Source: a virus. From it: a DNA stretch of 64,000 bases. This document shows, piece after piece, positions 10,815-45,173 of this stretch. The translations under genes and the position numbers were made by a program. The number at the start of each line of letters is the position of its first letter. Position 1 is the stretch's first letter. The stretch lies in the UHGV virus genome UHGV-0214148. The stretch is one strand, 5' to 3'. Under the pieces are notes generated by a model that saw nothing but the letters and a program-made list of their open reading frames with translations, made no database searches and was not told where the DNA came from.

Positions 10815-10852
10815 GACAGACTGCCTGCGGGCAGTTGTGTGTCCGTAGGTAA

Positions 10853-10889
10853 CCCCTCCCTGTAATGGGGAGGGGTATCCATTTTATTT
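10853..10889 (+). terminator. intrinsic terminator
   Basis: Stem CCCCTCCC/GGGAGGGG (10853-10860/10868-10875) followed by a T-rich tract; a second short hairpin sits at 10820-10835. Confidence 0.6.
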
Positions 10890-10908
10890 AAAAGTAGGAG
10901 TCTTTACG

Positions 10909-13900: not shown

Positions 13901-16095
13901 GATACGGCGGGTTTGGACCAACATCCCGCCGTGTTGAAAAAAAAGCGAACGAATACGGCGTATTGACAAATATACCGCTGGTTGTTACGCCAGACATACC
14001 GAAAGGTCTACTAGATGGGGCTTACTTTATCGGTGCTGAAAGTAAACCATGTAAAGTTGTTTACGGTACCACTACGGTGGCTAGTGATCGGTTGTCTATC
14101 GATGCGGCAGAATGGGCGAAGTTGACTAATATTGTTCAGTCCAGCCAGTTCTCTGGGGCTTCTAACGGCAACGCCTATGAGCGGATTAGCGTAGCTAAGA
14201 CCAAAAAGAACAACTACAGTTTGTCCTTTTGGGTGCTTGGTCAAACGATGTCTGGTGGTCCGCTTTGTATCGCGATAGTGAGTCTTATCTATAAAGACAC
14301 TGACGGGGTAAATAAGTTTGCTTTTTACTTCTTTCAGGTAAAACCGACTATAACCAACGGGGTCATAAGGTTCGTTAGTTCGGAAGCGAGAATGATGACG
14401 TTCAGGGAAAAAATGGCCAGTAACGCCATTAATCTCTCACCCACAGCTTTTAATGGTGAACTTAAACAACGCTCCGGTCAAGTTTTCCTTTATTCGCAAG
14501 ACGGACAAAAGTTCAGATTCTCAATACATAACCTGGTTGGCGGGAATCTTGTAGGATCAGAGATTTCTTTTGCTTTTGGGATAAACTTGACTAAAAAAGG
14601 AGAATGGTTTACCGGCGAAATTCATCGGGCGTGGGGCTATACGTATACGCTGAATAATACATCTGAAGTCTATATACCCGATCTCTCGGGCATCGCGCTA
14701 TTGACTTGTAACTCGGAAGATTTAAACGAGTTGTATCTCGGTGGCGAACAGTATAGAATCTCTGATTTGTTTAACAAAAAATATACTGTTATCGATAAGA
14801 TTATTATTGGCGGCGTACAAACACAGAGCGGTTGGAATTTCTATCTGACGGAGGAAACCGAGTTAAGTTTTGGAAATAAAAGATATACCGTTCCAAGATG
14901 GTCCGTTGATTTAAGCGATGAATTCCCGACTAATCACGCTAACCAGACATTCTACGTTTATGCTGAAGTGGTCGGTTCTACTGCCCAATACCGCATCGGT
15001 TTAGAGCAGTTAGCTGATACCTCGTCGAGACTGTTTGTTGGGACAGTAACCACTGATTCGAACCGTATTACGGATATCAGTATCGATAAAGTAAAACGGT
15101 TAGGTCGTGTAAAAGAGCTGGAAAATCATGCCTCGGTTGTTGATCAGCACGATGTGGCGCAGGCGTTCGACAGGAAAACTGGTCCACTATTAACAGTGGT
15201 TAATAAACCCGTTAAAGCCATTACAGCATCTGCGAGCAAGGGTGCTGGGTATGTCGATGGCCAGAAATGGAATACGTTGTCCGGGATTGCAACGCGGCCC
15301 AGGTTGCCGGTACAGGAAACCTATTCAGGTTATAAAAGTATCAGCAGGGTGGCGTATGAGAACTGCGCTGACCAGTTCTGGCAGAAAGCGGTTGCTGCGA
15401 ACGTTGCAGCGGCTACTGCTTCTGAGAACAAACAAGCAGCAACCGCGAACATGAAGTGGCTGGGCGCGTATACGAGACCGACTACCGGTGCGAGTGTGTG
15501 TCTGGTACTAAGTCTACGTGTTAAAGTACCTGGTAATCCCGGCACCGCTAATCGTAGACTGAAAATCAGGCTTGCGGCTCCGACAGGTATAACTGAAGTT
15601 CGTTACGGGTTAAATCAGTCTGGCGGTACGATGGCTGAACAGACAGTAACGTTGACTGCCAACAGTTATCTGGAAAAAGAGCACGCCGGATTTAAGCCAG
15701 CCGAAGAAGTTCGTGTTCATGCTACCTTTGTCATTCCAAAAAATGAATACGAGAGTTACCGTACGAAGTTCGGTGCGGTTCAGTTGATTGACGTTGAATC
15801 GAACACTGTCATTAAACAGACAGATATCGACACACCGTTTTTCGTGTACACCGCCACGGAGCAAGCGGCACAATCTGGTTTGGTGTATAAAGCGGTTAAG
15901 AGTCAGTTTCGTCAACTCCCGGCTCAACCTGTCGTCATTGTAACTGATGGACAGACAGGGACTACGCCACCGGTGAAAACCTCGTTTGCTGACGGGACAT
16001 TAACGGTCTACGTGGCAACCACGTACGACGCGGTTAACCCAGCACAAACACGCGATATCGACAAGCTCCAGTTCAATCTTATGTTTACATCTTAA
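10909..16095 (+). CDS. tail fibre protein (1728 aa)
   Basis: AGGAG SD; N-terminal PPEGPFY...GLDY motif; fibre motif GIDKMNNTTPIAKPVTKAL...KVHTH. Confidence 0.7.
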   Translation: MPREDAAQFNGTLSTATYPNRFNVVIPPEGPFYRIGLKLTVADDTAPNGRRTLIEGLDYYLGYYFKELAEAEQDQIYGGFMLLTATEIEYEILGVARQYRVPQSEIGKFLVRTDLKDPRNVDWSELMAYAPVIQPIDPPANLEEAILRDEVVKALNDIRKKIIQRSTELDAAFTEVTNLIYENGKKIFDEELYQHHLNPNAHQYTTNDVGALPVLGRAVDATKAFGLTIDQLATLMGSAGIEQSDVEQLMGEALGTVYGRWGTTNGNELTFKTPGGHIISIRGDKWLITSPQPLVIKADQDNNESGLAVEFSAGLNTLWVHSGSEQDVLAPVYNSVYLVTPEMVNMYLTSVTLLEANAYFKPSDTVKPYGTAKQSNPLTLNANIPTATESVYGVFSITNIATSVALGTAISQKAVTELKNRLDLYVDDDYTVNGRGFVKTGDNMVLTLTKADFGIDKMNNTTPIAKPVTKALANVLKNKSLKVHTHTTADLDNVPIGSATVDGILQLWDAIDTTNDKAVTSRQGWLFAKEIKKVSDKLNTLLPAWTTAGSKYTNNSILPILSMGNYEGYGKNMDALQMVIGVQQGKLYALISSKSALPGTEGIYYAVAGLKNDKSLGEIYKTTFRYKPKGLETNYPGVELKEITVTGTEAFIAKGSDDNYYLVKLNGSMDYTKHTDVRLVTFSEFVSETTWEFVPNMFMDRVVIADNGVYVLRTMLMADLKNNSLVDYIKDTPQPMFRVGLLRLNKTDRFEQVDLSSTRKIGKCADLVEPGAFDVDNPNTKRLAYFTAEGKALWTVNLQLTRGVSRWITPVVKDGNLLTVGVSGVCLGFSSTKGTTFGPWNGAYRLDLLTGEVGLETTNIFPIKIDTTGCYLKDGTKIELKWKWATRSSGYMADNRICVGDMVYSCCCSTEKQLAPSLHYQKLPEGVSYLDYVKLSAGYEGQSTFENRINPVVGSVWKPSMTLPLFFPGTNKVWLKHQKTAYFIEAEYDKDTTYGYPGYGGFGPTSRRVEKKANEYGVLTNIPLVVTPDIPKGLLDGAYFIGAESKPCKVVYGTTTVASDRLSIDAAEWAKLTNIVQSSQFSGASNGNAYERISVAKTKKNNYSLSFWVLGQTMSGGPLCIAIVSLIYKDTDGVNKFAFYFFQVKPTITNGVIRFVSSEARMMTFREKMASNAINLSPTAFNGELKQRSGQVFLYSQDGQKFRFSIHNLVGGNLVGSEISFAFGINLTKKGEWFTGEIHRAWGYTYTLNNTSEVYIPDLSGIALLTCNSEDLNELYLGGEQYRISDLFNKKYTVIDKIIIGGVQTQSGWNFYLTEETELSFGNKRYTVPRWSVDLSDEFPTNHANQTFYVYAEVVGSTAQYRIGLEQLADTSSRLFVGTVTTDSNRITDISIDKVKRLGRVKELENHASVVDQHDVAQAFDRKTGPLLTVVNKPVKAITASASKGAGYVDGQKWNTLSGIATRPRLPVQETYSGYKSISRVAYENCADQFWQKAVAANVAAATASENKQAATANMKWLGAYTRPTTGASVCLVLSLRVKVPGNPGTANRRLKIRLAAPTGITEVRYGLNQSGGTMAEQTVTLTANSYLEKEHAGFKPAEEVRVHATFVIPKNEYESYRTKFGAVQLIDVESNTVIKQTDIDTPFFVYTATEQAAQSGLVYKAVKSQFRQLPAQPVVIVTDGQTGTTPPVKTSFADGTLTVYVATTYDAVNPAQTRDIDKLQFNLMFTS

Positions 16096-22886: not shown

Positions 22887-22911
22887 TCGACAGCGAAAAA
22901 AAAAAACAGTA

Positions 22912-22951
22912 TACCTACCTCCCGTAATAGGAGGTAGGTATTTTTATTTTT
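22912..22951. terminator. bidirectional intrinsic terminator at the strand switch
   Basis: 11-bp stem TACCTACCTCC/GGAGGTAGGTA, A11 run upstream, T-rich run downstream. Confidence 0.7.
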
Positions 22952-22953
22952 TC

Positions 22954-23484
22954 TTAGGACGTAAAACCGTCCAGCTCACCGTTGGTGGTGGCCAGGTCAA
23001 TACGATTATCAACAACCTTCGGCGTAATTACGAAAGTTGCCATTACACCTGGCTTATAACGGAGGTTCTTTTCAGTAACGGTACACGTTACCGTACGCAG
23101 AGTGACGCTATCGTGTTCGTCTTTCTGGTCTTCGGTGGTGTACTCAACGTCACCAGGTGCGATAGAGTCGTCAGGTTTTACTTTATTGATGTAAAACTGT
23201 AATCGGTCGCGTAGTTCGTTTTCTCCAGTCCAGAGAGCCAAATCGTCCGTTACCTCAATGCGTCCGACAACGCCAGGTTCCAGACGATCGTAATGCAGTT
23301 CGATTGCGCCTTTAAAATTTTCAGACTCTGTACGTGCGGTCATGGTAACTTTGGTATTTTTATCGCCCTTTTCAAGAGCGACAGGTTGACCAAAAGTTAC
23401 CTCTTTATCAGTGACCTGATGCGGTAGCTCTGTGTTAGCAGCATTATAAAGCGCAACTAACATCATCTGGTTAGTAGCTGCCAT
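22954..23484 (-). CDS. hypothetical protein, paralogue family A (176 aa)
   Basis: Shares NFKG..E.HY.RL and TNGELDGFT blocks with 23552..24082. Confidence 0.6.
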   Translation of the reverse strand: MAATNQMMLVALYNAANTELPHQVTDKEVTFGQPVALEKGDKNTKVTMTARTESENFKGAIELHYDRLEPGVVGRIEVTDDLALWTGENELRDRLQFYINKVKPDDSIAPGDVEYTTEDQKDEHDSVTLRTVTCTVTEKNLRYKPGVMATFVITPKVVDNRIDLATTNGELDGFTS

Positions 23485-23535
23485 TATCTTAAATCCTTAA
23501 AATGAAAGTTAAAGAAATATCGGGGGAGGTTACCA

Positions 23536-23544
23536 CCCCCCCCC
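23536..23544. repeat. C9/G9 homopolymeric tract inside a GC hairpin
   Basis: Nine consecutive C on the plus strand in the intergenic region about 50 nt upstream of the 23484 start. Confidence 0.6.
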
Positions 23545-23551
23545 GAATCAA

Positions 23552-24082
23552 TTACTCTTTAGGCGCTGGTGCGGTGAAGCCATCCAGTTCACCTTCCAAA
23601 CCGTTCAGTGCTACTTTCTCAATAGCTGGAGGGGTAACTTTATACGTCGCAACAGTACCTGGCAGGAACTTCAAGTGGCCAGCCACAACCGTTACCACGT
23701 AAATGGTTTTGCCTTCTTCTTCACGAGAGATAGTTTGCAGGTCGTTTTCACCGAACTCGTCATCGGTGTACCCTTTCTCAGCCATGGCTGCGTTAACTTT
23801 CGCCAGGATTTTCGTCGGTGAATCGAAATCGGTAGTAGGTGCAGTTACTTCAACTTCACCAACGATGTCGCAGGAAAGACGAGTATAGTGGAATTCTTTC
23901 TCGCCTTTGAAGTTCTGGCTTTCTGCCTTGGCGGTCAGAGTAATTTTAGTGTTGCGGCCAGCTTCTCCGGTGAACTCAGCGACAGCACTAAAATTAACAT
24001 CATTTACAGTCAGCTTAGAAGCAGTTTGGTTGTTTTTAGCAATTACAATCTCGATAAGCTGCTGTTGAAAAGTTTTAGCCAT
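23552..24082 (-). CDS. hypothetical protein, paralogue family A (176 aa)
   Basis: Start moved to ATG 24082 (MAKTF...), which has a GAGGT SD and gives the same length as its paralogue; the track start is 24118. Confidence 0.55.
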   Translation of the reverse strand: MAKTFQQQLIEIVIAKNNQTASKLTVNDVNFSAVAEFTGEAGRNTKITLTAKAESQNFKGEKEFHYTRLSCDIVGEVEVTAPTTDFDSPTKILAKVNAAMAEKGYTDDEFGENDLQTISREEEGKTIYVVTVVAGHLKFLPGTVATYKVTPPAIEKVALNGLEGELDGFTAPAPKE

Positions 24083-24222
24083 TGTTTTTACCTCGTAAGT
24101 AGTATGGGTGGTTTGCATAGTATTGTTCGGATTATAGAAGTGTTGTTAATAGTTATGACAGACAGCAGTAAGGGTTGTCTGTAAAATTATTATTTTTTAA
24201 CTTTTTATAGAAGGGTGAAAAC

Positions 24223-31346: not shown

Positions 31347-31372
31347 CCCTCACCTAAGTAATATATATCTGA
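31347..31372 (-). promoter_or_regulatory. conserved 26-bp promoter-like element, copy A
   Basis: CCTCACCTAAGTAATATATATCTGA, nearly identical to copies at 35726 and 55204, each 47-76 nt upstream of a minus-strand start codon. Confidence 0.45.
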
Positions 31373-32968: not shown

Positions 32969-33484
32969 TTACCCCCGGTGCAAGAAAATACGGTTAGTGT
33001 TTTCGAATTTCGGTTCCGTCCACTCTAGTTCCCAGTAAGCCTGGTTAATATCGCGAGACGTAAGTTTCAAATTCGAAACGCCGGGGATATCGATCTGTTG
33101 CAGTAAATTAATAATCGTCATCAGCTCTTTACGAGGACGGTTCCAGATAACTTCAAGATATTCCTTTAGGCGTTCTGGGTAAGCGACAGGACGAATATAA
33201 ACTAACCCAGAAGGATACTCAATTGCTGAGGGCGTTCTTGGCACTAACCAAACCCAGTCTTTTAATAGCGGTCCTGGGTGATAGTTGGAGAGTTGGGTAA
33301 GCGCGTTTGCGACCGAACAGCAACGGAAGTAGGTGATATCCCAATCGCGTTCATGACAATTTCGCGCAACGATAACTTTTAAACGGTCAATAGGTTTACC
33401 GTCGATGGTCGTAACACCAGGTTGATTCGCCAGAATCTGACGTTCACGTTTAGTGTAAAGATTCATGTTAATATTTACTGACAT
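32969..33484 (-). CDS. hypothetical protein (171 aa)
   Basis: ORF length; AAAGGAG SD. Confidence 0.5.
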   Translation of the reverse strand: MSVNINMNLYTKRERQILANQPGVTTIDGKPIDRLKVIVARNCHERDWDITYFRCCSVANALTQLSNYHPGPLLKDWVWLVPRTPSAIEYPSGLVYIRPVAYPERLKEYLEVIWNRPRKELMTIINLLQQIDIPGVSNLKLTSRDINQAYWELEWTEPKFENTNRIFLHRG

Positions 33485-33510: not shown

Positions 33511-33519
33511 GGGGGGGGG
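33511..33519. repeat. G9/C9 homopolymeric tract, intergenic
   Basis: Nine consecutive G on the plus strand between the stop at 33534 and the start at 33484. Confidence 0.6.
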
Positions 33520-33533: not shown

Positions 33534-34376
33534 TTATTTAAGATTCTGAATTTCTCTCATCTCGTTACAAAACTTATCAAACAACTGGGCGTATTTGTCA
33601 ATGTGATTTTCGAACTCCCCAAAAAGGTGGCGTGAAAGGCGTTCGCTGACTTCCTTTTCGTATTTCTCGAGAAGTTGTTTAAAATATTCACTGTCTCTCT
33701 TAATTTTCTTCACATGGGATTCCAAAACTTTAAGAATCCATGATTCGTTTCTGATCAAGAGATTCAAATTACCTTCAAGATATTTGCTTTGATAAATCAT
33801 AAATTCGCGGCCTTCGAGTTCATCTTTCACGCGTCGGATAAACTCGCCAGCATTGGCTTCGCTAATATCTTCAACTGTAAATACCAGAACATTTTCTCCC
33901 TCTATGTCTTCCAATAGTTGATTTAAAAGAACACGATAGCTAGTATATTCATAGTTCACCCTAAGTACGTTGTTTTCAACCAGATAAGTGAATTTGTCGC
34001 TGTAAAAAAGGTATAATATCGATCCAATTTTACCTGCTTGTTTGGGGGTAAGCGGAATCTCGTCTGTGAAGTAAGCGACGTCTTTTGCGGTGGGCTTGTC
34101 TTTTAGCCTACAAGTCATTTGATCGGGTATTTCTTGCCCTTTAGGCATCTCAACAGGCCGTACCAAAATATCCATAACTGCACTAATGAGCTTGTTAGAG
34201 AAATCGACCTCGCCTTCTACCCAGAAAATATTAAATGTTTCCGATTTAACTTTATAGTAAAAGGTGTACGTTTTTTGTAACTCAGCGATTTCCTTAATTT
34301 GTTCTTCTGTGGGGATAGGGGAGATCTTAAACCTGCTGATGACTTTTTCTTCTTCGGTGAGTTCGAACTGTAACAT
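33534..34376 (-). CDS. hypothetical protein (280 aa)
   Basis: ORF length. Confidence 0.55.
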   Translation of the reverse strand: MLQFELTEEEKVISRFKISPIPTEEQIKEIAELQKTYTFYYKVKSETFNIFWVEGEVDFSNKLISAVMDILVRPVEMPKGQEIPDQMTCRLKDKPTAKDVAYFTDEIPLTPKQAGKIGSILYLFYSDKFTYLVENNVLRVNYEYTSYRVLLNQLLEDIEGENVLVFTVEDISEANAGEFIRRVKDELEGREFMIYQSKYLEGNLNLLIRNESWILKVLESHVKKIKRDSEYFKQLLEKYEKEVSERLSRHLFGEFENHIDKYAQLFDKFCNEMREIQNLK

Positions 34377-35725: not shown

Positions 35726-35752
35726 CTCTCTCCTAGGTAATATATATCTGAG
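35726..35752 (-). promoter_or_regulatory. conserved 26-bp promoter-like element, copy B
   Basis: CTCTCTCCTAGGTAATATATATCTGAG, 47-73 nt upstream of the 35679 start and just downstream of terminator 35766-35796. Confidence 0.45.
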
Positions 35753-35801: not shown

Positions 35802-37922
35802 TTAAATAACTACCCAGCTTTTGCCATCGGAACCAATCTGCATTAGCGTAATACTTTCATTGGTCTCAATGGGTTTGGCAAGACCTTCCGTCCCACTCTT
35901 TGGAGTGATGAGAACGTTTGAGTTTTCCGGTTTAACGATGATCTTACCAGCCTTATTTGCCACGATCTGTATATTTCTACCCACACTATATTCTAGATCA
36001 GGAATAGTAAGTTGGCCGCCACGGTTGGTGGCTGGGAAATACACATAAGACGACACATCTTCCTCAGATAACACTATACCACCAGAATCACGATTGACCG
36101 AGATCTCAAACTTAGAAATATCGATATCGTAGGCAGTAACTTTCGTAATATCTGTCAGAACCAATTCGTTCAAATCGGTATTAGCTGGACTGTTCGCCAG
36201 ATCAAACGGAGTGCCATTCTTGCCGTCAAGCACAGGTGTGACTTTGATTTTATTGTCACCCGGATAAATGATTTCAAGCGTATGCCAGTTATTATCGTAT
36301 GCACCAAAAGTTCCTAATTGCGCATTCTGCTTTTTATGATGCATCAGATAAAGATTCGTAGCGTCGGTCTGTAAGAAAAAAGACATTAGGTACGGGTTCG
36401 TCTTAGCCACACCAGCGTCAGCAAGTGTAGTACCAGAAGGTAGGTCGGACGCGGAAATACGCCAATAAAGTCCTAATCCGAAACGATCTGCTGCTAAATC
36501 ACCTTTTAGTCTAAAAGTAACGGTCAGACGTCCACCGTAACGTATCATGTCCGCAGCAGTCGCCATTGACTTAGTTACATTCCAAGGTTTCATCGTTACA
36601 GCCTTTCTTAATTCGACGAAATGCCCGTTTCCATCCTCAGTTTTTTGCACGGTTACGTTACAATCAACGATATTGTTCCAACCTTGCCCTTTCAGGGAAC
36701 CATCTCCACGACGACCGTTATAACCAACAGACTCTACTAATGGGGTATAGCTTCTTACCACATTCATATTGTCTTTGGAGCTCTTAGTGTCGTTCTTCGT
36801 CAGGAACATTGCACCAATCGCTGTTCTTGATAATATCTCGGCAGCTATTCTCTCTGAGATAATACCGCGTCGTGCCCAAGAACTGAAATGACTATTCCTT
36901 TCTGCAGACGTCCAGTTATCAGAACTACGGGAGGCAGCACCGTAATAGGCAGCACCAGTGATATTAGGATCGTCAGTGGGATCATTAGTCGGAACATGTT
37001 GGCCATTATCGTCGTACATGAATGGAACAAAAAAGATATTTTTTTGTTCGTTGTTACGATAATTACCGTATATGGTTTCATATTGAGCAGGATATTTTTC
37101 CTTCCAATAATAGGTAGTGTCCCCACAGATCCATGGTACTTCGGCGGTGGCGTACTCGGGCATCTGAGAGAGATGGTCAGAGAGATCAGTTCGGAAACGC
37201 TCTACCATTGCGTTAAATAACGCTGGTTGTTGTGCGTATTGTACTTTAGTCAGATCATACTCTCCCTGCATCCACACTACAGCCAAGAGTTTATTTTTAG
37301 GATTAACTTCCAGGGCTTTTTTGGTCCGGCTAACTAAATCTTTATAAAGCGGTTTGTCCACCCCCCATACCGATGACGCCGCAGAGGCTCCTGTGGCTTC
37401 ATCGAAGGTACCTTCTGCACCACCCGTGAAAGCAGAACCGCCGCGTGCGCAGGGTACTAGTAAGATACCGGCGTTCTTAGGAATATACGGGAGAAGACGC
37501 TTCGCGATATGAAGACCTTGACCCACACATCCGTATTCACCTTTGTCTAAATTGGCATTGGGATGCGAGTATTTGGACATATCTTGCACGTCGTGCAGAC
37601 AGTGATCCGCTGGAATGACGTCGTTATATTTACAATCAGCCCCATTAGGCGTTACCTTCGCACGGCGCGCCATCTGTTTAATTCGCGGATCGGGAGCGTC
37701 CAACGTCGCCGGTAGAGGCAACCCTTCACCATAACTCATCGCATTAGATTGCCCGGCTATAGGAATCACGAAGTAATACTCCGGCTCCGTCGTGCCCTGA
37801 AGTTTTGCAATATCAATTTTATATTCTTTTTCTTCCTTAGAAAGAAGAACTAACGCACCTTTGAGATCGCCAGAGAAATTGTCGAGTTCATGGATACGTT
37901 TCTTTCCAATTGGCTGACTCAT
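35802..37922 (-). CDS. tailspike-like protein with sialate-O-acetylesterase (SASA/SGNH) domain (706 aa)
   Basis: GQSNAMSYG and WMQGEYD blocks typical of the SASA esterase family; N-terminal roughly 35 aa resemble the N-terminus of the 1479-aa fibre. Confidence 0.7.
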   Translation of the reverse strand: MSQPIGKKRIHELDNFSGDLKGALVLLSKEEKEYKIDIAKLQGTTEPEYYFVIPIAGQSNAMSYGEGLPLPATLDAPDPRIKQMARRAKVTPNGADCKYNDVIPADHCLHDVQDMSKYSHPNANLDKGEYGCVGQGLHIAKRLLPYIPKNAGILLVPCARGGSAFTGGAEGTFDEATGASAASSVWGVDKPLYKDLVSRTKKALEVNPKNKLLAVVWMQGEYDLTKVQYAQQPALFNAMVERFRTDLSDHLSQMPEYATAEVPWICGDTTYYWKEKYPAQYETIYGNYRNNEQKNIFFVPFMYDDNGQHVPTNDPTDDPNITGAAYYGAASRSSDNWTSAERNSHFSSWARRGIISERIAAEILSRTAIGAMFLTKNDTKSSKDNMNVVRSYTPLVESVGYNGRRGDGSLKGQGWNNIVDCNVTVQKTEDGNGHFVELRKAVTMKPWNVTKSMATAADMIRYGGRLTVTFRLKGDLAADRFGLGLYWRISASDLPSGTTLADAGVAKTNPYLMSFFLQTDATNLYLMHHKKQNAQLGTFGAYDNNWHTLEIIYPGDNKIKVTPVLDGKNGTPFDLANSPANTDLNELVLTDITKVTAYDIDISKFEISVNRDSGGIVLSEEDVSSYVYFPATNRGGQLTIPDLEYSVGRNIQIVANKAGKIIVKPENSNVLITPKSGTEGLAKPIETNESITLMQIGSDGKSWVVI

Positions 37923-37925: not shown

Positions 37926-38438
37926 CTACTCTCCAAAAGTTAAGATTTTATTGTCAAACGTCAACACGACAGAATCATCACCGATGCCACACGGTGTTTC
38001 ATCTGGGCCGAAAACCACCACGGAGAACTGTCCTTTATAAGCGATGGAATTTGGAGCGATGCTAAGCGTTACCGCGTCTTTACCTACCGTGAACGACTGG
38101 TCGGTTAAATCGTCGGTTTGTAAGTTAGCACCACAAACGGCATTGACGGATTCGATAAGATCGTGTGCATTAAACCCTTCACCTATTACTTTTACCAGAA
38201 TAGGTTGTTGGTTTAACCACCGCTCTGCGGTTAAACGGTTGTAGTAGATTTGCAACGTTCTGTTTCCAGGACGTTTAATCTTTACAATGGCAGTGGAGTC
38301 ACGATCCATTTCATCACTGGTTTTTACGTCACTGACTTCAACCTCGTTCTCTTGCAAGTCAAGTTGGAGGTCATGGTTAACCAGTGAAATAACCATGTTA
38401 AGTGAAGTTAGTGATAAATCTGGTGTGAATTTTTCCAC
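37926..38438 (-). CDS. hypothetical protein, paralogue family B (170 aa)
   Basis: GTG start with TAGGAGGT SD; shares PDLSL...NHD...YY.RL...CG.NLQ..DL and C-terminal CGIGDD.VLTF blocks with 44527..45087. Confidence 0.55.
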   Translation of the reverse strand: MEKFTPDLSLTSLNMVISLVNHDLQLDLQENEVEVSDVKTSDEMDRDSTAIVKIKRPGNRTLQIYYNRLTAERWLNQQPILVKVIGEGFNAHDLIESVNAVCGANLQTDDLTDQSFTVGKDAVTLSIAPNSIAYKGQFSVVVFGPDETPCGIGDDSVVLTFDNKILTFGE

Positions 38439-38492
38439 GTATGTTTACCTCCTAAGGTTGGGGGTCATAAAATATTGACTAAAAAACATTCA

Positions 38493-38501: not shown

Positions 38502-38535
38502 ACGATTATTTTCAACCGCTTTCAGTTGAAAATAA

Positions 38536-38979
38536 TTAGCTAATTCTCAAATCACGCAGTGCGCCTGTCGATTTCATCGCGTTTTGGAACGCGCCACTGA
38601 TGTTATTAGTCCAGTAATAATGCTGTCCGTTAATAACCTGCTGATAGGTCAGTGCGCAGGTGTTACCACCTAAATTTACGGTAATGTTAGAGGCTCTGCC
38701 TCCTTGTAAGTAAACCGCTAAAGTAGGCTTTGCGTTGGCAACTATCGTCGTTAACTGTAACTCAATACCTACTAAAGTTCCCACCCCGCAGTTACCCGCG
38801 TTTTGAATGGTTCCCTGATTTTTCTGGTTTAACGGCCAGCTTGGTCCTACCGCGCCCCATTTCTTACCTAAAGAATCGCTATATGCAGCGGTTGCAATTT
38901 TACAGCCCATAGATCTTCCCACCATTTGACTCATCATAAAAGGTCTACCCAATCCTAATTTACTACCAGCAGCGCTCAT
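38536..38979 (-). CDS. adhesin-like Gly-rich protein, paralogue family C (147 aa as an intact ORF)
   Basis: Paralogue of 39298..39843; the conserved N-terminal extension and its SD/ATG lie upstream in another frame (see 38980..39044). Confidence 0.55.
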   Translation of the reverse strand: MSAAGSKLGLGRPFMMSQMVGRSMGCKIATAAYSDSLGKKWGAVGPSWPLNQKNQGTIQNAGNCGVGTLVGIELQLTTIVANAKPTLAVYLQGGRASNITVNLGGNTCALTYQQVINGQHYYWTNNISGAFQNAMKSTGALRDLRIS

Positions 38980-39044
38980 CCATTGTTCGCCCGTTTCGTT
39001 CTTAGCCGAAGAACCGACCCACGAACCGGTTACCCCCCCCCCAT
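38980..39044 (-). other. out-of-frame N-terminal extension of the family-C gene with its own SD and ATG, interrupted at a G-tract
   Basis: AGGAG 7 nt upstream of ATG 39044..39042. As sequenced the frame reads M-G-G-G-stop; one extra G, or two fewer, gives MGGGVTGSWVGSSAKNETGEQWMSAAG, which matches the paralogue's MGVASGWVGSSAKAVTGQEWMSVAG. Confidence 0.55.
39033..39042. repeat. C10/G10 homopolymeric tract at the start codon of the family-C gene
   Basis: Ten consecutive C on the plus strand; the last C is part of the minus-strand ATG. Confidence 0.7.
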
Positions 39045-39056
39045 CGCGATCTCCTG

Positions 39057-39287
39057 TTAAGATTTTCTACATGTTATTGAATCGAAAGCACCACGCCCAA
39101 CCCAACGCCAATTATAATGATGATCAGCTTTATAAAGTGTGTATCTGCCCTGCTTTTTTACGTCGAAAATATTGATCGTAGTCTCTTCATTACCCAGCTT
39201 AGCTGTGCCGTAACATACAGGTTCGGGTAGTTGTTGACATCCACTTACTGTAAGCAATGCGAAACCCAGTAAAACTTTTCTTAACAT
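39057..39287 (-). CDS. small lipoprotein (76 aa)
   Basis: Signal peptide with lipobox TVSGC; mature part about 58 aa; lies between the two family-C genes. Confidence 0.6.
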   Translation of the reverse strand: MLRKVLLGFALLTVSGCQQLPEPVCYGTAKLGNEETTINIFDVKKQGRYTLYKADHHYNWRWVGRGAFDSITCRKS

Positions 39288-39297
39288 CTTTCTGTCC

Positions 39298-39843
39298 TTA
39301 GACTACACTTATTGAAATTGTTGCACCGTTCTGATTAAATAACCAGTTGGTTGCCGTCTTAGCCTCATAGCGCCGGACGCCGTTACTGTAAGAGTACGGT
39401 AGAAAAGTAATCTTCGTTCCGTTAAACGAAAGCGTAATATTCTGATTTGGTCCATTAGTTAGGGCCATGTAGATAATACCAGTATTTTGTACTTGGCTAA
39501 GATGTGTGACGCTACAACCCAAGATCGAACCTGACACCGAACCGGCCGCATTTTGTGTTTGCACACGATTCGATACTGTAGAACCAGCACCCGTTGTTGT
39601 AGAGTTGTTCGAATACCCCCCATACGTATTTGTAATAGGAACCCACTGCGTGTTCGTAGCCTGCACCAAAACAACATAGGTTGATCGGCCTACAACGAGT
39701 TTAAGATCCTCTACGCTACGCCCGACCATCTGCGACATGTTAAATGGTGTGCTCAGTTTAAGCTTATTACCTGCCACACTCATCCACTCCTGACCGGTTA
39801 CTGCCTTTGCTGAGCTTCCAACCCAGCCGGATGCTACCCCCAT
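39298..39843 (-). CDS. adhesin-like Gly/Ser/Thr-rich protein, paralogue family C (181 aa)
   Basis: ORF length; paralogy with 38536..38979 including the N-terminal extension. Confidence 0.6.
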   Translation of the reverse strand: MGVASGWVGSSAKAVTGQEWMSVAGNKLKLSTPFNMSQMVGRSVEDLKLVVGRSTYVVLVQATNTQWVPITNTYGGYSNNSTTTGAGSTVSNRVQTQNAAGSVSGSILGCSVTHLSQVQNTGIIYMALTNGPNQNITLSFNGTKITFLPYSYSNGVRRYEAKTATNWLFNQNGATISISVV

Positions 39844-39884: not shown

Positions 39885-42800
39885 TTAATTCCCCTTGAGT
39901 TCTTTAAGCTCTTGGCGAAGAGTTTTCATGCCTTCTACTAACAACGCAATAACACCATTGTAATTTAGACGTAAACGTTTTTCGCCTGAAATGGCATCAT
40001 CATCCTCAGACACAAGCTCAGGTAACGCTTCTAGAGCGTCCTGAGCAATTAGACCTACAGAAGTCTGCCAGCCGTCGTCAGGATGCTGAATTTCGTACAA
40101 ATAACCGGTTAGTAACTCTAACCGATCCAAAGCCTTATCCAGCTTCACCAGATTACGTTTGTTACGACGGTCAGAACGAATCTGTACGTCGTTAAACGAA
40201 CCGTTACCGTTGCCAGTAACGTTATGTCCAAAGTTTACTTGGCCGTTAGAATTATTAAAAGACAACGGGCGTAATCCGTTCCAGGAACCCGCTGCGGCTT
40301 GTCCGGCGTCGGTTACTAAGAAATAGGTATTGGCACCGTCGTTACGTAAAATAAAACCGTAGGTACCGTAAGCGATTCGAAAATCAGGGTATTTAGTGGC
40401 CAATTTACCATTAACGGTTAAATCACCGCCTACAGTACCGCCCCCTGACGGTAACGCGCCCACTTCCGCAGCAGTTGGCTTGTTTCTCGTATTGTAAGCA
40501 CGACGCCAGCCTGGTGAGTATCCATCGCCGTTAAATACGTAGATAAACTCCGCATTAGTGAGTGCTCCGCCGACGCTCGTCGTTGTGGCGGTCGTTATAC
40601 GGATCGTGTAGTTGTTTGTGCTGTTGCCGTTACTAATGACTTCTATAACGGCCCCAGCTAACGGAATGACACCACAACCCGTCTCGCTGTGAGGTATGGA
40701 CGCACTGGCGGCATAAGCCCACGCACAGCGAGCAACCCACGATCTTGTGGTAAATGCGCCGTTATTTTTCAATAACGTCACTAGCTGTGCTGTAGTTATT
40801 GCACCGCCATTAGCGCCAGTTTCTAACCAACCACTAGGTGATGCCGGACAACCTATTTCGGCTGGCCCTAACGATATATTTCTAGTGCCATCAAACGCAA
40901 TACCATTGATGGTTCTTGCGGTTTGCAACTTTGTTGCCGTGGCTGCGTTTCCGGTGGTCGACTGATTCCCTGTTTGGTTTACTCCAGGTAAGTTGATGTC
41001 TTTAGTACCATCAAAAGCTACGCCACCTATATTTCGCGCAGTCTGGAGCTTAGTCGCAGTCGCAGCATTCCCCGTCGTCGATTGGTTACCGGTTTGGTTC
41101 ACACCGGGCAGACTAATGTCTTGCGAACCATCAAAGTTAATACCACCGATCTTACGTGGCGTTTGTAACTTAGTAGCGGTCGCTGCATTACCTGTCGTAT
41201 TCTGGTTACCTTGCTGGTTAACCCCCGGTAAATTGATATCCCCAGTACCGTCAAAGGTAACGCCCCCGATTCTGCGAGCAGTTTTCAGTTTCGTCGCGGT
41301 AGCAGCGTTACCAGTAGTATCTTGATTACCGGTGGTATTTACACCAGGAATACTATCACGGGCAGTATAAACTTGTGCCCAATCTGACCACGGCGCATCC
41401 GCTGTATCGCGTCGACTACGAATATAAACGGGTGCGTGCGCACCACTCGTGCCCGACCAACCGATTAACAGTTCACCTTCACCTAGCGCAGTAGAACCGC
41501 CCAAATGCAGCAAGTTACCATAAGCGGTCGGATAACCGTTATTGTAAACTTCGTACATCTGAATACCGGGTGTACCTTTGTTTGAACCGGTTAGTGCAGT
41601 AACCCGACCACGACCTACCAGGGTGTTGATATTGATGTCAGCAGAACCATCGAATCTCACACCGTTAATATTTCTGGCAGTTTGAAGTTTAGTGGCTGTC
41701 CCGGCATTACCCGTGGTGTTTTGATTACCCTGTTGGTTAACACCTGGGAGGTTAATATCAGCACTACCGTCGAAAGCGACTCCACCAATTCTACGTGCCG
41801 TCTTTAATTTCGTTGCGGTTGAAGCATTGCCTGTTAACTCGCCTGCTAACCCTTTTGCAAAGGTCTGTTTTTCTGCCCAGGTGTGTGCTGCATTCAATAC
41901 AGGCATCTGTCGTGGTGTAATCGTACGACTACCTTTCTCACCAGCGATACGTACTGCAAAGAATCGATAGTTGGCAGTAGACACCGTACTACGCCAAACC
42001 AACATACTCCGGCCTGATGTAGCGCCATCTGATGGACCAACCAGAATGCTAACTAAGTTACCGTCAATAACACCCCAATCCATTCCCGTAGGAATGTTTT
42101 TCATGGTGTTAAGCGGCGTACAGATTAACTCACCCGGTTTAAAGTCATAGGTTTGCCAGTCTAAAGGATCAACATTCGCACGTTCACCGCCGATACCTAA
42201 TACCAGCGGAAGCGAATACGATGTGAAAACCTCACGCCAATCGCTCCAAGCGTTACCCGTACGGATACGTTGGAATTTACGACCTTTAGTTTCTGTACCC
42301 GTACCGTATGTAGTATAATTCTGTTCGACCCCTGTACCGTCTAAGCGTAAGGTAACTTCACAAACGCCTAATATGGTTTCACCAGAAGAACCGGTAAGTG
42401 GACCGTTAGTTGCTTCACCAGTGACACTGAAACGTCCCGGTTTAACGAGATCGTTAAAATTGGCTTTAAAGAAAGCACCGTCAGTCTGATAACCAACCTG
42501 AATCCAATCTTCCCATTGCGGGTTTGATGAATCCCACGTTGCGGTCAAACCACGAACATACATCGTACCACGACGTGTGGTGTATCGCTGCAACCGTCCG
42601 AAAAGACCACCTTCCATTACTTCTAGTACGCCTTGCGCACCGCCACCTTCTTCAGGGTAATGTCTGCTAAAAACAGCCAGCGAACTGCTTGAGTTTCGCC
42701 AGTTACCCATATGCTCAGCGCCACCCAAACTGTTCAAGTCTATAGCGGTAGATAATGGACGTACACCAGTAGTTACCATTCTCCACGGCGACCAGGGTCC

Positions 42801-44324
42801 ATTGGCACCATTCCACTCGCCACTCAGCATACGGTTGTACACGTTACCATTACGACAGGTAAAACGCTGTGCACCACTGTAATTACCGGCTTTATACACT
42901 TCCAGATAACCGACTGCACCGTCTTCTGGGAAATGTTTTGCCATCGACGCATTGGTTGACGTCGACTTAGCCCACGTTCCTGTGTAATTGGCATCAGGAG
43001 CAAATGTGTTAATATCAGCATCTACAGGCATTTCGCCACGGAAACGTAGATAGGTGTCAGGAGACAGACCGATATTGCGAGCAAACGTTTCTTTATCTGG
43101 GATATCAGCGCCGTTAGAGTTTTTCTGTAACGCGCCATTCGCTTTATCTACAGTGGCTTTTAATCCCAAGAAATTGATGATATCCGCAGTTGACCCTTTC
43201 GCTAACAAGGATCTGGCCGTTTCTGTAAAATCCGTTAATCCGACTTTATTACTGCCAGTGAAATACATGAGTTTATTTGCCGCTGTGGTGACTGCGGCAA
43301 TGGCGGTGAGCAACGGACTGAGAGGTTGTTTCTGCGCAAGTTCCCCAGTAATCGTTGTTGCGAAGTTAGGGTCATTACCTAACGCCTCAGCTAATTCCGC
43401 TAAGGTATTTAACGTCTCGGGTGAAGAACCAACCAGTTCCGCAATCGCGTCACGCACCCAGGCCGTTGTGGAGATGCTCGTGTCGTTCGAGTCCTTCGGG
43501 GGTGTTGGGGATGACGGTTTACCCGTAAAATTCGGCGAATGTTTATTGGCTTTTAACTGTAATTCGTCATTCAGCTGTTTAACCGTGGACGGTGTGGCGG
43601 CCTCAGTCACGGATTCGCTAGTCAGTGTATCGTTAAGTTTAACGATACCTTTACCGGTCGTACTAGCGTCGATTAAGCCCTGCGCAGCGATTTTCTCCGC
43701 ACGTAAGGCAGCTGACTCCGAGCGTGTTGCTGCGCCTTCTGAACTTTCTTTATCTTTCGCGACCTGTGCAGCAATCTTCTCCACTGCGCCCTTACTGGCC
43801 TCAACTGAAGCCGCAGTATTCTCGACACCGGTAGCCGTCTGTTGGACTTGTCCGGCCTGTTGCGTAACCGTTTCTGCTTTCTTAGTTACATCAGCCGCTG
43901 CAGCCGTCACCGATTGTTCGCTTGTAGCGACAGCTTGAGCTTTCTCATTTACCGACTGTAATACAGTATCTACGGCAGTTTTCGCGGCTAAAACTTCAGC
44001 GTGTTTTTTGTTAACCTCAGCAGTTTTAGTGGCAACGGTTCCCGCTTGCTCGCTAACGGTGGAAGCTAACGTGTCAGTTTGTTGCTTCGCGGTTTCTGCT
44101 AAGTCTTTTGCTTGTGTGGCTTCTGTTGCAGACTGTTGTGATTTGGCCGCAGCCGTTTGTGCGTCAGCAACCGCGTTTCTGACGGTGTCAATATCCGCAA
44201 CAATCTCGCGGACAGGTAACTGATAATCCCTTTCGTCTTTCGAAAAAAGTAAAACGCCTTCACCGATATCCCCGGTGTATGGACGTAAATCGTGTAAACG
44301 AATTTTCTTTACCGCTTTAGCCAT
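39885..44324 (-). CDS. long tail fibre with coiled-coil shaft, tandem fibre repeats and C-terminal intramolecular chaperone domain (1479 aa)
   Basis: Ala/Gln/Thr-rich coiled coil; about six copies of a roughly 40-aa repeat (NTTGNAATATKLQTAR.IGGV.FDG..DINLPGVNQ.GNQ); C-terminal SDRRNKRNL...LTGYLYE resembles peptidase-S74 chaperone domains. Confidence 0.85.
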   Translation of the reverse strand: MAKAVKKIRLHDLRPYTGDIGEGVLLFSKDERDYQLPVREIVADIDTVRNAVADAQTAAAKSQQSATEATQAKDLAETAKQQTDTLASTVSEQAGTVATKTAEVNKKHAEVLAAKTAVDTVLQSVNEKAQAVATSEQSVTAAAADVTKKAETVTQQAGQVQQTATGVENTAASVEASKGAVEKIAAQVAKDKESSEGAATRSESAALRAEKIAAQGLIDASTTGKGIVKLNDTLTSESVTEAATPSTVKQLNDELQLKANKHSPNFTGKPSSPTPPKDSNDTSISTTAWVRDAIAELVGSSPETLNTLAELAEALGNDPNFATTITGELAQKQPLSPLLTAIAAVTTAANKLMYFTGSNKVGLTDFTETARSLLAKGSTADIINFLGLKATVDKANGALQKNSNGADIPDKETFARNIGLSPDTYLRFRGEMPVDADINTFAPDANYTGTWAKSTSTNASMAKHFPEDGAVGYLEVYKAGNYSGAQRFTCRNGNVYNRMLSGEWNGANGPWSPWRMVTTGVRPLSTAIDLNSLGGAEHMGNWRNSSSSLAVFSRHYPEEGGGAQGVLEVMEGGLFGRLQRYTTRRGTMYVRGLTATWDSSNPQWEDWIQVGYQTDGAFFKANFNDLVKPGRFSVTGEATNGPLTGSSGETILGVCEVTLRLDGTGVEQNYTTYGTGTETKGRKFQRIRTGNAWSDWREVFTSYSLPLVLGIGGERANVDPLDWQTYDFKPGELICTPLNTMKNIPTGMDWGVIDGNLVSILVGPSDGATSGRSMLVWRSTVSTANYRFFAVRIAGEKGSRTITPRQMPVLNAAHTWAEKQTFAKGLAGELTGNASTATKLKTARRIGGVAFDGSADINLPGVNQQGNQNTTGNAGTATKLQTARNINGVRFDGSADININTLVGRGRVTALTGSNKGTPGIQMYEVYNNGYPTAYGNLLHLGGSTALGEGELLIGWSGTSGAHAPVYIRSRRDTADAPWSDWAQVYTARDSIPGVNTTGNQDTTGNAATATKLKTARRIGGVTFDGTGDINLPGVNQQGNQNTTGNAATATKLQTPRKIGGINFDGSQDISLPGVNQTGNQSTTGNAATATKLQTARNIGGVAFDGTKDINLPGVNQTGNQSTTGNAATATKLQTARTINGIAFDGTRNISLGPAEIGCPASPSGWLETGANGGAITTAQLVTLLKNNGAFTTRSWVARCAWAYAASASIPHSETGCGVIPLAGAVIEVISNGNSTNNYTIRITTATTTSVGGALTNAEFIYVFNGDGYSPGWRRAYNTRNKPTAAEVGALPSGGGTVGGDLTVNGKLATKYPDFRIAYGTYGFILRNDGANTYFLVTDAGQAAAGSWNGLRPLSFNNSNGQVNFGHNVTGNGNGSFNDVQIRSDRRNKRNLVKLDKALDRLELLTGYLYEIQHPDDGWQTSVGLIAQDALEALPELVSEDDDAISGEKRLRLNYNGVIALLVEGMKTLRQELKELKGN
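40850..41340 (-). repeat. tandem roughly 120-nt coding repeats (fibre repeat units)
   Basis: Near-identical DNA units seen directly; further copies lie around 41640-41830. Confidence 0.6.
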
Positions 44325-44526: not shown

Positions 44527-45087
44527 TCATGTAGCCGGGTTTTCTTCAGCTGTGTCGTCATCTGGAACCTCAAAGGTAAGAACGGCATCATCACCAATAC
44601 AGAAGATCGCATCATCTTCGTTTGCTAATGCTCGTTCGGTTGTATCGAATAACGTTACCATAAACGCATTCATCCACGCAGGAGAATCGTCAGCAACGTT
44701 AACAGCAATGGGTTCGTTACCTAAGGTGATATCTGCAGCACGTAAATCTTCGGGTTGTAAGTTCGTTCCGCAGAATTCATTTACAACACCTAAAATGTCA
44801 CGAAGGTTGTCTTCAGTACCGTCTAACGAAATCAAAATAGGTTCAGACGCTAACACTTCGTCCGCATCCAAACGGTCGTAATAAACAACCACAGAAGCAC
44901 CATCAGGTTTCCTGATTTTTGTAATCTCTGTCAGTGTGTTACGACGCGAAGTGGTCGGGGACGGGTTTGCCATAGTGTTGCTAATACGGATTTCGTTTAG
45001 AGACAACCGTGAACCGTTATCGTGGTTGATTAAAGCGACCACTAATTCGGCTGAGGCCAGACTTAAATCAGGTACGTAAGTAGTCAC
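44527..45087 (-). CDS. hypothetical protein, paralogue family B (186 aa)
   Basis: Start reassigned to GTG 45087 (GGGAGG 5 nt upstream); the track ATG 45153 lies upstream of terminator 45121-45144, and homology to 37926..38438 begins right after the GTG. Confidence 0.55.
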   Translation of the reverse strand: MTTYVPDLSLASAELVVALINHDNGSRLSLNEIRISNTMANPSPTTSRRNTLTEITKIRKPDGASVVVYYDRLDADEVLASEPILISLDGTEDNLRDILGVVNEFCGTNLQPEDLRAADITLGNEPIAVNVADDSPAWMNAFMVTLFDTTERALANEDDAIFCIGDDAVLTFEVPDDDTAEENPAT

Positions 45088-45120
45088 TAAAACCTCCCAG
45101 ATCAAAAAAATAAAAACACC

Positions 45121-45144
45121 TACCGCCCATAGAATCGGGCGGTA
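45121..45144 (-). terminator. intrinsic terminator
   Basis: Stem TACCGCCC/GGGCGGTA followed on the minus transcript by a U-rich run. Confidence 0.55.
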
Positions 45145-45173
45145 GACAGTCATTTTACAGCTAAAAAATCAAA

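What the first reader, a model, noticed from the sequence alone, without database searches (positions are those of the whole stretch)
23521..23548. C9/G9 tract inside a GC hairpin between two family-A paralogues
Nine consecutive C (23536-23544) form one arm of a hairpin with GGGGGAGG. The hairpin lies downstream of the 23552 stop and about 50 nt upstream of the 23484 start. Changes in tract length would alter stem stability and could modulate read-through into the downstream gene. It is one of four G/C homopolymers of 9 nt or more in this window, far more than composition predicts, and all are in the adhesin/fibre region.
Basis: seen in the sequence. Interest (0 to 1): 0.5.

Follow-up and report, generated by a model that had tools for sequence, protein, structure and literature searches.

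The report
Terminator hairpin with variable poly-G arm
The C9/G9 tract is one arm of an ordinary transcription-terminator hairpin between two duplicated virion genes of an uncultured jumbo phage; its length varies between phage strains, but that variation is predicted to leave the hairpin unchanged.

Summary
C9 lies at 23536-23544 and pairs with GGGGGAGG at 23522-23529. The window has four G/C runs of 9 nt or more against about 0.1 expected.

On the minus strand, which both flanking genes use, the RNA reads UCGGGGGGGGG-UGGUAA-CCUCCCCCGA followed by UAUUUCUUUAAC. That is a 10-bp stem of -20.9 kcal/mol with a U-rich tail, starting 5 nt after the stop codon. About 25 of the 33 intergenic regions analysed in this window carry a comparable hairpin. 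Relatives as distant as SPN3US and Erwinia jumbo phages have unrelated hairpins at the same position.

In 29 related assemblies the 5' arm is G8, G9, G10, G11 or A-interrupted (for example GGGGGAGGG). The 3' arm occurs in only three forms and the tail is nearly invariant. All alleles fold at -17.6 to -22.2 kcal/mol. A modelled series is flat from G8 to G14.

The tract is therefore hypermutable but buffered, because extra Gs go into the loop. It probably arose by an A-to-G change that RNA tolerates as a G·U pair. I read it as a leaky intrinsic terminator, not a length-dependent switch.

A different tract, G10 at 39033-39042, does behave like an ON/OFF frameshift switch in a gp38-like adhesin gene.

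The parts
23552..24118 (-). Upstream DUF7941/phrog_4862 virion-structural paralogue. The longest ORF is 188 aa. The likely true start is the ATG at 24082 (MAKTFQQQ), giving 176 aa.
   Evidence: Metagenome gene calls give 176 aa. The PHROG alignment begins at residue 13.
23520..23546 (-). The whole stem-loop on the gene strand: U-CGGGGGGGG / G-UGGUAA loop / CCUCCCCCG-A. It has 10 pairs, one of them G·U, and a 7-nt loop. dG is -20.9 kcal/mol.
   Evidence: Terminator scan, RNA folds.
23536..23544 (-). The homopolymer: C9 on the plus strand, G9 in the minus-strand RNA. It forms the 5' arm of the stem, and its last G spills into the loop. This is the hypervariable part.
   Evidence: Observed alleles are G8, G9, G10, G11 and A-interrupted forms.
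23521..23529 (-). 3' arm CCUCCCCCG. It reads CGGGGGAGG on the plus strand. It occurs in only three forms across relatives and sets the stem length.
   Evidence: CCTCCCCCG occurs in 20 assemblies, CCTCCCCG in 8 and CCCCCCCCG in 1.
23508..23519 (-). U-rich tail UAUUUCUUUAAC immediately 3' of the stem.
   Evidence: It is invariant apart from two variable positions in relatives.
23494..23498 (-). Shine-Dalgarno-like AAGGA, 9 nt upstream of the ATG of the downstream paralogue. It lies outside the hairpin.
   Evidence: Read directly from the sequence. Conserved in alignment A1.
22954..23484 (-). Downstream DUF7941 paralogue (176 aa). The 35-nt spacer between hairpin and ATG shows no recognisable promoter motif, so I infer it is expressed by read-through.
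22911..22941 (.). Bidirectional terminator that closes the two-gene unit at the convergent junction. I used it as a non-homopolymer control.
   Evidence: The stem is invariant in 20 genomes.

Best explanation
The element is a factor-independent (intrinsic-type) terminator or attenuator hairpin. It forms in the minus-strand transcript just after the first of two tandem DUF7941 virion-protein genes.

The nascent RNA folds into a 9-10 bp G:C-rich stem followed by a U-rich tail. I infer that part of the transcription stops there and the remainder reads through into the second paralogue. The second paralogue would then be made in smaller amounts.

The G9 run is simply the purine arm of that stem. 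It most likely arose from an arm like GGGGGAGGG by an A-to-G transition. RNA tolerates that change because A-U becomes G·U. Once the arm was a long homopolymer it began to slip during replication.

The pyrimidine arm is only 8-9 nt long, so extra or missing Gs change only the loop. The length variation is therefore nearly neutral.

What is shown: the anatomy, the strand asymmetry, the conservation of position and the allele spectrum. What is inferred: actual termination, its leakiness and the stoichiometric consequence.
For: 1. **Anatomy.** The site has a 10-pair stem and 7-nt loop, with a tail of 7 U in 10 nt. The stem begins 5 nt after the stop codon. It ranks second in the terminator-like list for 16-36 kb. 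The centroid hairpin is -21.7 kcal/mol, and the 76-nt region has z = -2.45.
2. **Strand specificity.** G-run alleles fold at -19 to -21.5 kcal/mol on the gene strand but only about -15.8 on the opposite strand, where a C·A mismatch appears. A-containing alleles fold equally well on both strands.
3. **Genome-wide habit.** About 25 of the 33 intergenic regions analysed (of 35 that are 25 nt or longer) carry a co-oriented hairpin of -13 to -26 kcal/mol followed by UAUUU- or UUUU-type tails.
4. **Positional conservation with sequence turnover.** An IMG/VR relative (L003) and Erwinia phages pEa_SNUABM_4, phiEaH2 and Huxley all have unrelated hairpins plus U-tracts after their first paralogue. SPN3US has one after its single copy.
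5. **Structure maintained across 29 assemblies.** dG ranges from -17.6 to -22.2 kcal/mol. The interrupting A tracks the U of the other arm: G5-A pairs with U-C5, and G4-A pairs with U-C4.
6. **Related phages use such terminators.** ONT-cappable-seq mapped 133 termination regions in phiKZ. Of the 84 terminators predicted intrinsic across the six phages studied, more than 70% are phiKZ's, and 61 phiKZ terminators share a CCYCCCC-loop-GGGRRGG-YTTAT hairpin motif (PMC10914365). The same method mapped 132 sites in 201phi2-1 (PMC11512511).
7. **No independent promoter signal.** The spacer lacks the recurrent ATATATTAC motif found upstream of other genes in the window.
Against: - There are no transcript data, so no 3' end has been mapped at this site.
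- The U-tract is interrupted (AUAUUUCUUU), which makes termination efficiency uncertain.
- The RNA polymerases of this phage group are non-canonical multisubunit enzymes whose termination rules are only partly known (PMC7598289).
- The phiKZ terminator consensus itself does not occur anywhere in the window.
- The invariance of the 3' arm among five of the metagenome loci is partly by construction, because I retrieved them with that sequence.
- The hairpin could equally act as a 3'-end stabiliser after RNA processing.
Confidence: 0.7

Rival explanations
1. The hairpin is an RNA-stability or processing element. It protects the 3' end of the upstream message, or the 5' end of the downstream one, against exonucleases after cleavage, and does not stop the polymerase.
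For: - The structural evidence is the same as for the terminator reading.
- The U-tract is imperfect.
- The related G-run hairpin at 38439-38535 has no U-tail at all and abuts a Shine-Dalgarno sequence.
Against: - The tail AUAUUUCUUUAAC is as conserved as the stem.
- Orthologous positions in Erwinia phages carry textbook terminators with long U-runs.
Confidence: 0.13
2. This is the first reader's model: a length-dependent, phase-variable attenuator. Slippage of the G tract changes hairpin strength, or loop and folding kinetics, and so tunes read-through into the second paralogue.
For: - Tract length really is polymorphic (G8 to G11), even among strains about 99% identical.
- G/C runs of 9 nt or more are about 40-fold enriched in the window.
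- Another tract in the same genome does act as a frame switch.
- Loop size ranges from 3 to 7 nt between alleles, which could affect folding kinetics.
Against: - dG is flat from G8 to G14, and natural alleles sharing a 3' arm lie within 0.6 kcal/mol for G9 to G11.
- Non-homopolymer alleles coexist in near-identical strains with the same stability.
- The geometry between stem base and U-tract is fixed by the 3' arm.
- A- and T-runs near a neighbouring terminator vary just as much.
Confidence: 0.08
3. The element acts at the DNA level. The G:C homopolymer or palindrome marks a recombination or template-switch junction between a fast-evolving upstream gene and a conserved downstream module.
For: - Upstream flanks are 60-94% identical between genomes, whereas downstream flanks are 82-99% identical.
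- The neighbouring palindromic terminator shows loop inversion between strains.
Against: - The G·U versus C·A strand asymmetry points to selection on RNA.
- Unequal divergence can simply reflect different constraints on the two paralogues.
- I mapped no breakpoint at the tract itself.
Confidence: 0.05

Closest known systems
Hairpin (intrinsic-type) terminators mapped by ONT-cappable-seq in phiKZ-like jumbo phages, specifically the phiKZ motif BCCYCCCCHWWDGGGRRGGBYTTATKYYGT and the 201phi2-1 terminators (PMC10914365, PMC11512511)
   Same: - Short homopurine/homopyrimidine G:C stem with a small loop.
- U/A-rich 'UUAU'-like tail.
- Intergenic position after structural genes.
- Dozens of such elements per genome, and partial read-through is common.
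   Different: - Here the G-rich arm is 5' and the C-rich arm is 3', the opposite order to phiKZ.
- The phiKZ consensus has no match in the window, even with 3 mismatches.
- Nothing has been mapped experimentally for this phage.
- One arm is a pure, length-variable homopolymer.
Phage contingency loci and hypermutable polyG tracts: Campylobacter Fletchervirus phages (Sorensen et al. 2021, Cell Rep 35:109214, cited in PMC10877375) and T2/T4 contingency loci (PMC12633550)
   Same: A long G homopolymer whose length differs between near-identical phage genomes, consistent with polymerase slippage.
   Different: - Those tracts lie in reading frames and switch proteins ON and OFF.
- The tract in this finding is non-coding, and its length changes are absorbed by the loop.
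- The gp38-like tract at 39033-39042 in the same window does fit this class.
Variable G-repeat in the Helicobacter pylori tlpB mRNA leader, targeted by the small RNA RepG (PMC8295292)
   Same: A length-variable G-repeat in an untranslated RNA segment that base-pairs with another RNA segment. I recall RepG's pairing region as C/U-rich, but I did not check this in the paper.
   Different: - In H. pylori the partner is a trans-acting small RNA, and repeat length sets translational regulation.
- Here the partner is in cis, 3-7 nt away, and can pair in any register.
- I looked for no small RNA partner.

Membership tests
Intrinsic (factor-independent) transcription terminator | Stable G+C-rich stem-loop (about 5-14 bp, loop 3-8 nt) in the transcript | tested here: met
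   10 pairs (8 G-C, 1 G·U, 1 U-A) with a 7-nt loop, at -20.9 kcal/mol.
Intrinsic (factor-independent) transcription terminator | U-rich tract directly 3' of the stem | tested here: inconclusive
   The tail UAUUUCUUUA has 7 U in 10 nt and passes the scan's criterion. It is interrupted by A and C, however. Similar UAUUU tails follow other hairpins in the window.
Intrinsic (factor-independent) transcription terminator | Lies downstream of, and co-oriented with, a gene, with the structure maintained in relatives | tested here: met
   The stem starts 5 nt after the stop codon. 29 assemblies keep -17.6 to -22.2 kcal/mol through one-sided (A-U to G·U) and two-sided (register) changes. Analogous hairpins occur in Erwinia phages and SPN3US.
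Intrinsic (factor-independent) transcription terminator | Transcript 3' ends map to the U-tract, and downstream transcription is reduced | not testable with these tools
   No RNA data are available.
phiKZ conserved terminator motif family | Match to BCCYCCCCHWWDGGGRRGGBYTTATKYYGT | tested here: not met
   No matches in the window with up to 3 mismatches. The arm order is reversed at the finding.
Contingency locus (phase-variable simple sequence repeat) | Homopolymer long enough to slip, with length polymorphism among closely related genomes | tested here: met
   G8 to G11 across 29 assemblies, and four alleles among strains about 99% identical. Caveat: these are short-read metagenome consensus sequences, so +/-1 errors are possible.
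Contingency locus (phase-variable simple sequence repeat) | A length change switches or grades expression, through reading frame, promoter spacing or structure | tested here: not met
   Predicted stem stability is flat from G8 to G14. The tract is not in a conserved reading frame on either strand, because allele lengths differ by non-multiples of 3. Kinetic effects of loop size remain untested.
Curated structured RNA families (Rfam 15) | Covariance-model match | tested here: not met
   No match at the locus at E <= 1.

The most novel reading that the evidence does not exclude
The poly-G tracts of this gut jumbo phage could form one coordinated set of contingency elements in its host-recognition region. 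The coding tract toggles a gp38-like adhesin by frameshift. The two non-coding tracts are the terminator arm at 23536 and the hairpin base at 38493, each upstream of a DUF7941 paralogue. These might grade read-through into those paralogues through loop-size or kinetic effects that thermodynamic folding cannot detect. Together this would give a population of virions with mixed fibre equipment.
Probability: 0.08. Interest if true: 0.6.

Novelty: new member of a known kind. Interest (0 to 1): 0.28.

Why it matters
On its own the element is an ordinary terminator, so the finding should not be logged as a regulatory switch.

Two points are still useful. First, it is a clean natural example of how a homopolymer can arise inside a functional RNA stem through an A-U to G·U change. 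The tract then drifts in length without cost because the partner arm is shorter. Genome scans that flag every long G/C run as phase-variable should take note of this.

Second, it led to population evidence that long homopolymers are hypervariable in this widespread uncultured jumbo phage. One of them toggles a tail-fibre adhesin gene, which bears on host-range bet-hedging in jumbo phages.

Tried and rejected
- **Megablast against phage records.** The locus found nothing, and 24 kb of the window found only tiny matches. There is no cultured close relative to borrow annotation from.
- **Rfam** at E <= 1 gave no family at the locus.
- **The phiKZ terminator consensus** has no match in the window.
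- **Sigma-70 promoter scan.** It found 34 sites against 32.7 expected, so it is uninformative, as expected for a phage with its own RNA polymerases.
- **PDB sequence search** with two DUF7941 paralogues gave no significant relative. Protein function remains 'virion structural, DUF7941'.
- **IMG/VR scan for AATC-G9..TGA**, testing for a genome-wide repeated element. In the related phages only the two known sites (A and B) matched, and the other 20 hits were unrelated. I dropped the idea of a dispersed G-run element family.
- **MAFFT alignment of the hairpin alleles (A2).** It places gaps at the 5' end of the run and breaks the pairing register. I therefore used per-sequence folding instead of the count of structure pairs.
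- **Exact-protein look-up** for the 171-aa gene next to the 33511 tract found nothing on record.
- **The plus-strand ORF 23502..23702** that runs through the tract. I rejected it as coding because natural alleles differ by 1-3 nt in the tract and it is antisense to the paralogue's 3' end.
- **G-quadruplex.** I considered and rejected this, because a single G-run cannot supply four tracts.

Full report
**1. What is in the sequence**

The plus strand at 23520-23546 reads tCGGGGGAGGttaccaCCCCCCCCCGa. The C9 run is at 23536-23544.

Both neighbouring genes are on the minus strand. One is 23552..24118 and the other is 22954..23484. In their transcript the element reads 5'-U CGGGGGGGG G-UGGUAA CCUCCCCCG A-3', followed by UAUUUCUUUAAC. 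The stem begins 5 nt after the TAA stop at 23554-23552. The tract lies 52-60 nt upstream of the ATG at 23484.

The window has four G/C runs of 9 nt or more and none of 7-8 nt. First-order Markov simulations give a mean of 0.09. The observation and its statistics are therefore confirmed.

**2. Context**

The window comes from an uncultured jumbo phage.
- Megablast finds nothing in about 50,000 phage records.
- The encoded proteins are 44-48% identical to those of SPN3US, a phiKZ-related jumbo phage that encodes its own multisubunit RNA polymerases (PMC7598289), and of related Salmonella and Erwinia jumbo phages.
- Gene order matches SPN3US: endolysin, DUF1353 chaperone, a divergent small gene, the DUF7941 gene, then convergent DUF4376 and two radical-SAM genes.

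The two flanking proteins are paralogues. Both hit Pfam DUF7941 and phrog_4862, with 'virion structural protein' as the related PHROG annotation. SPN3US has one copy and Erwinia phages have two or three. Metagenome gene calls suggest that the upstream paralogue really starts at 24082, giving 176 aa like its neighbour.

**3. Why it is a terminator-type hairpin**

- The consensus scan ranks the site second in the terminator-like list for 16-36 kb, with 10 pairs, a 7-nt loop and a U-rich tail.
- RNA folding gives a centroid hairpin of -21.7 kcal/mol, and z = -2.45 for the 76-nt region.
- I analysed 33 of the 35 intergenic regions of 25 nt or longer in the window. About 25 of them carry a co-oriented hairpin of -13 to -26 kcal/mol followed by tails such as UAUUUC, UAUUUUAUUU or CUUUUCUUUU. 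The element is one of many of its kind.
- The position is conserved while the sequence is not. An IMG/VR relative (L003) and Erwinia phages pEa_SNUABM_4, phiEaH2 and Huxley have unrelated stems with classic U-runs after their first paralogue. SPN3US has one after its single copy.
- In phiKZ and 201phi2-1, which belong to the same broad group of RNAP-encoding jumbo phages, long-read transcriptomics mapped 133 and 132 termination sites. Many of these are hairpins, and 61 phiKZ terminators share a CCYCCCC-loop-GGGRRGG-YTTAT motif (PMC10914365; PMC11512511).
- That exact motif is absent from the window, and the arm order at the finding is reversed. I therefore claim resemblance to that motif family, not membership.
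- No Rfam family matches the locus.

**4. Population and comparative data**

I retrieved the locus from 29 assemblies in total, the window included. These were:
- IMG/VR loci found by protein similarity;
- metagenome and IMG/VR loci found with the 3'-arm sequence as a pattern;
- contigs found by exact-protein look-up of the neighbouring genes.

The 5' arm after the closing C takes these forms:

| 5' arm allele | Assemblies |
|---|---|
| G8 | 1 |
| G9 | 4 |
| G10 | 13 |
| G11 | 3 |
| A-interrupted (G5AG2, G5AG3, G4AG5, G4AG6, G6AG2) | 8 |

The 3' arm is CCTCCCCCG in 20 assemblies, CCTCCCCG in 8 and CCCCCCCCG in 1. The tail ATATTTCTTTAAC varies at only two positions.

Ten loci are 98.5-99.2% identical to the window over 2-3.5 kb. 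Counting the window, this group carries four alleles:
- G9-TGGTAA in the window;
- G10-TAA in six loci;
- GGGGGAGGG-TAA in two loci;
- GGGGGAGG-TTAC in one locus.

The tenth locus is a contig that begins inside the run, so its allele cannot be read.

One caveat on ascertainment applies. Five loci were fetched with the 3' arm as the search pattern, so its invariance among them is by construction. The protein-based retrievals are independent of that.

A second caveat is that tract lengths come from short-read consensus assemblies. Two contigs (L092, L093) end at or inside the run, so errors of one base are possible.

**5. Test of the proposed mechanism**

- A modelled series with the window's loop gives -15.2 (G6), -18.4 (G7) and -22.5 (G8) kcal/mol. 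It then stays between -20.2 and -21.4 from G9 to G14. The two other natural loop types behave the same way.
- Natural alleles fold at -17.6 to -22.2 kcal/mol. Within one 3'-arm type, G9 to G11 differ by 0.6 kcal/mol or less. The non-homopolymer alleles are as stable as the homopolymer ones.
- The reason is geometric. The pyrimidine arm has only 8-9 nt, so surplus Gs move into the loop. A G-run can pair with CCUCCCCC in any register because G pairs with both C and U.
- The base of the stem and its distance to the U-tract never change.
- Slippage of one to two bases is therefore predicted to be nearly neutral. Effects of loop size on folding kinetics could not be tested.

**6. Origin of the homopolymer and the level of selection**

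The A-interrupted alleles place the A exactly opposite the U of the other arm. G5-A pairs with U-C5, and in another lineage G4-A pairs with U-C4. That is a two-sided register change which preserves pairing.

Replacing that A with G gives a G·U wobble on the gene-strand RNA and a C·A mismatch on the opposite strand. G-run alleles fold at about -21 kcal/mol on the gene strand but only about -15.8 on the other. A alleles fold equally well on both strands.

This supports selection on the minus-strand RNA. It also suggests that the homopolymer arose by a single tolerated transition, after which slippage produced G8 to G11.

As a control, the neighbouring bidirectional terminator at 22911-22941 has an invariant non-homopolymer stem in 20 genomes. 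Its flanking A-run ranges from A7 to A11, and its T-run from T5 to T9. Length variation is thus a general property of long homopolymers in this population.

**7. The other three tracts (outside the finding)**

*G10 at 39033-39042.* On the minus strand this reads AGGAG-N6-ATG GGG GGG GGG TAA. It sits at the true 5' end of a gp38-like adhesin gene.
- The visible 147-aa ORF matches Pfam Gp38_N only at profile positions 21-40 of 40.
- With G11 the reconstructed 169-aa protein matches positions 2-40, at 68 bits.
- In the window plus 10 related 225-kb metagenome genomes the tract is G8 (1), G9 (3), G10 (5) or G11 (2).
- It is in frame in 3 of the 11 genomes.
- The 165 codons downstream are intact in all 11.
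- This is the behaviour of a reversible contingency locus, as described for Campylobacter phages and for T2/T4 (PMC10877375 reference list; PMC12633550).

*C9 at 38493-38501.* This is G9 on the minus strand. It forms the base of a longer hairpin just upstream of a third DUF7941 paralogue, and it varies from G9 to G11.

*G9 at 33511-33519.* This tract is lineage-specific. Relatives have CACCCCACC or similar sequence there.

**8. Verdict**

The element is a new example of a known kind, an intrinsic-type terminator or attenuator in a jumbo phage. One arm happens to be a hypermutable homopolymer.

I put 0.7 on the terminator or attenuator reading, 0.13 on a purely RNA-stabilising role, 0.08 on a length-dependent switch and 0.05 on a DNA-level role.

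Noticed in passing
window 39033-39042 (minus strand), gene 38536..39045: The G10 tract sits in the first codons of a gp38-like tail-fibre adhesin gene and puts it out of frame (ATG GGG GGG GGG TAA). With G8 or G11 the full Gp38_N domain is restored (68 bits against 26 bits). Across the window and 10 related metagenome genomes the tract is G8 to G11. It is in frame in 3 of 11, and the downstream 165 codons are intact in all. This is a candidate contingency locus controlling a second adhesin, downstream of the 1479-aa fibre (39885..44324) and an intact gp38-like gene (39298..39843).
   Followed up: yes
window 38439-38535, tract at 38493-38501: G9 on the minus strand forms the base of a longer hairpin with CCCCC (-14.4 kcal/mol, enclosing a nested AAUGUU/AAUAUU stem). 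It lies directly upstream of the Shine-Dalgarno sequence of a third DUF7941 paralogue (37926..38438) and has no U-tail. The tract is G9 to G11 in near-identical genomes, and G6 or GGAGGGGG in more distant ones. Its function is unclear; it could be a 5'-UTR structure or an atypical terminator.
   Followed up: partly
window 33511-33519: The G9 (C9 on the gene strand) between 33534..34376 and 32969..33484 is specific to this lineage. Four relatives have CACCCCACC, ACCCCAC or CACCACACC there. It looks like a recent expansion of a short C-run in a spacer just upstream of a ribosome-binding site.
   Followed up: partly
window 22896-22941: The stem of the bidirectional terminator ATACCTACCTCC/GGAGGTAGGTAT is invariant in 20 genomes. 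Its loop occurs in both orientations (CGTAAT and TATTACG), which indicates inversion of the palindrome. The flanking A-run (A11 in the window) ranges from A7 to A11, and the T-run from T5 to T9.
   Followed up: partly
window 31358-31366, 35737-35745 and 55215-55223 (minus strand): The motif (AGA)TATATATTAC[CT]TAGG[TA]GAG.. recurs in three intergenic regions upstream of genes, each time followed by a small hairpin (3 matches against 0.67 expected). The copy at about 55190-55232 is the only non-coding stretch with 90-93% identity to Erwinia and Salmonella jumbo phages, where nothing is annotated. It is a candidate phage promoter plus leader.
   Followed up: partly
window 35802..37922 (minus strand) and 38536..39843: The host-recognition cassette looks imported. 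The 706-aa SASA/DUF6645 esterase is about 50% identical to YjhS/NanS-like proteins of Stx-converting phages. The gp38-like adhesins are 57-61% identical to proteins in many IMG/VR contigs whose identifiers suggest isolate genomes. Close relatives of the window carry one adhesin cassette where the window has two, plus a 76-aa ORF between them.
   Followed up: partly
L092 and L093 (metagenome contigs), equivalent to window about 23536-23548: Two independent short-read assemblies break at or just beside the G-run (L093 inside it, L092 three bases upstream). The tract therefore disturbs sequencing or assembly, and tract lengths taken from such assemblies deserve caution.
   Followed up: no
window 2297-16095 (plus strand) and 44527..45153, 37926..38438: Three giant virion proteins (1440, 1394 and 1728 aa) lie in this region. 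A second pair of DUF7941-like paralogues (phrog_2935) sits next to the fibre and adhesin genes. The small DUF7941 proteins may be fibre-associated adaptors. No solved structure is related to them by sequence.
   Followed up: no
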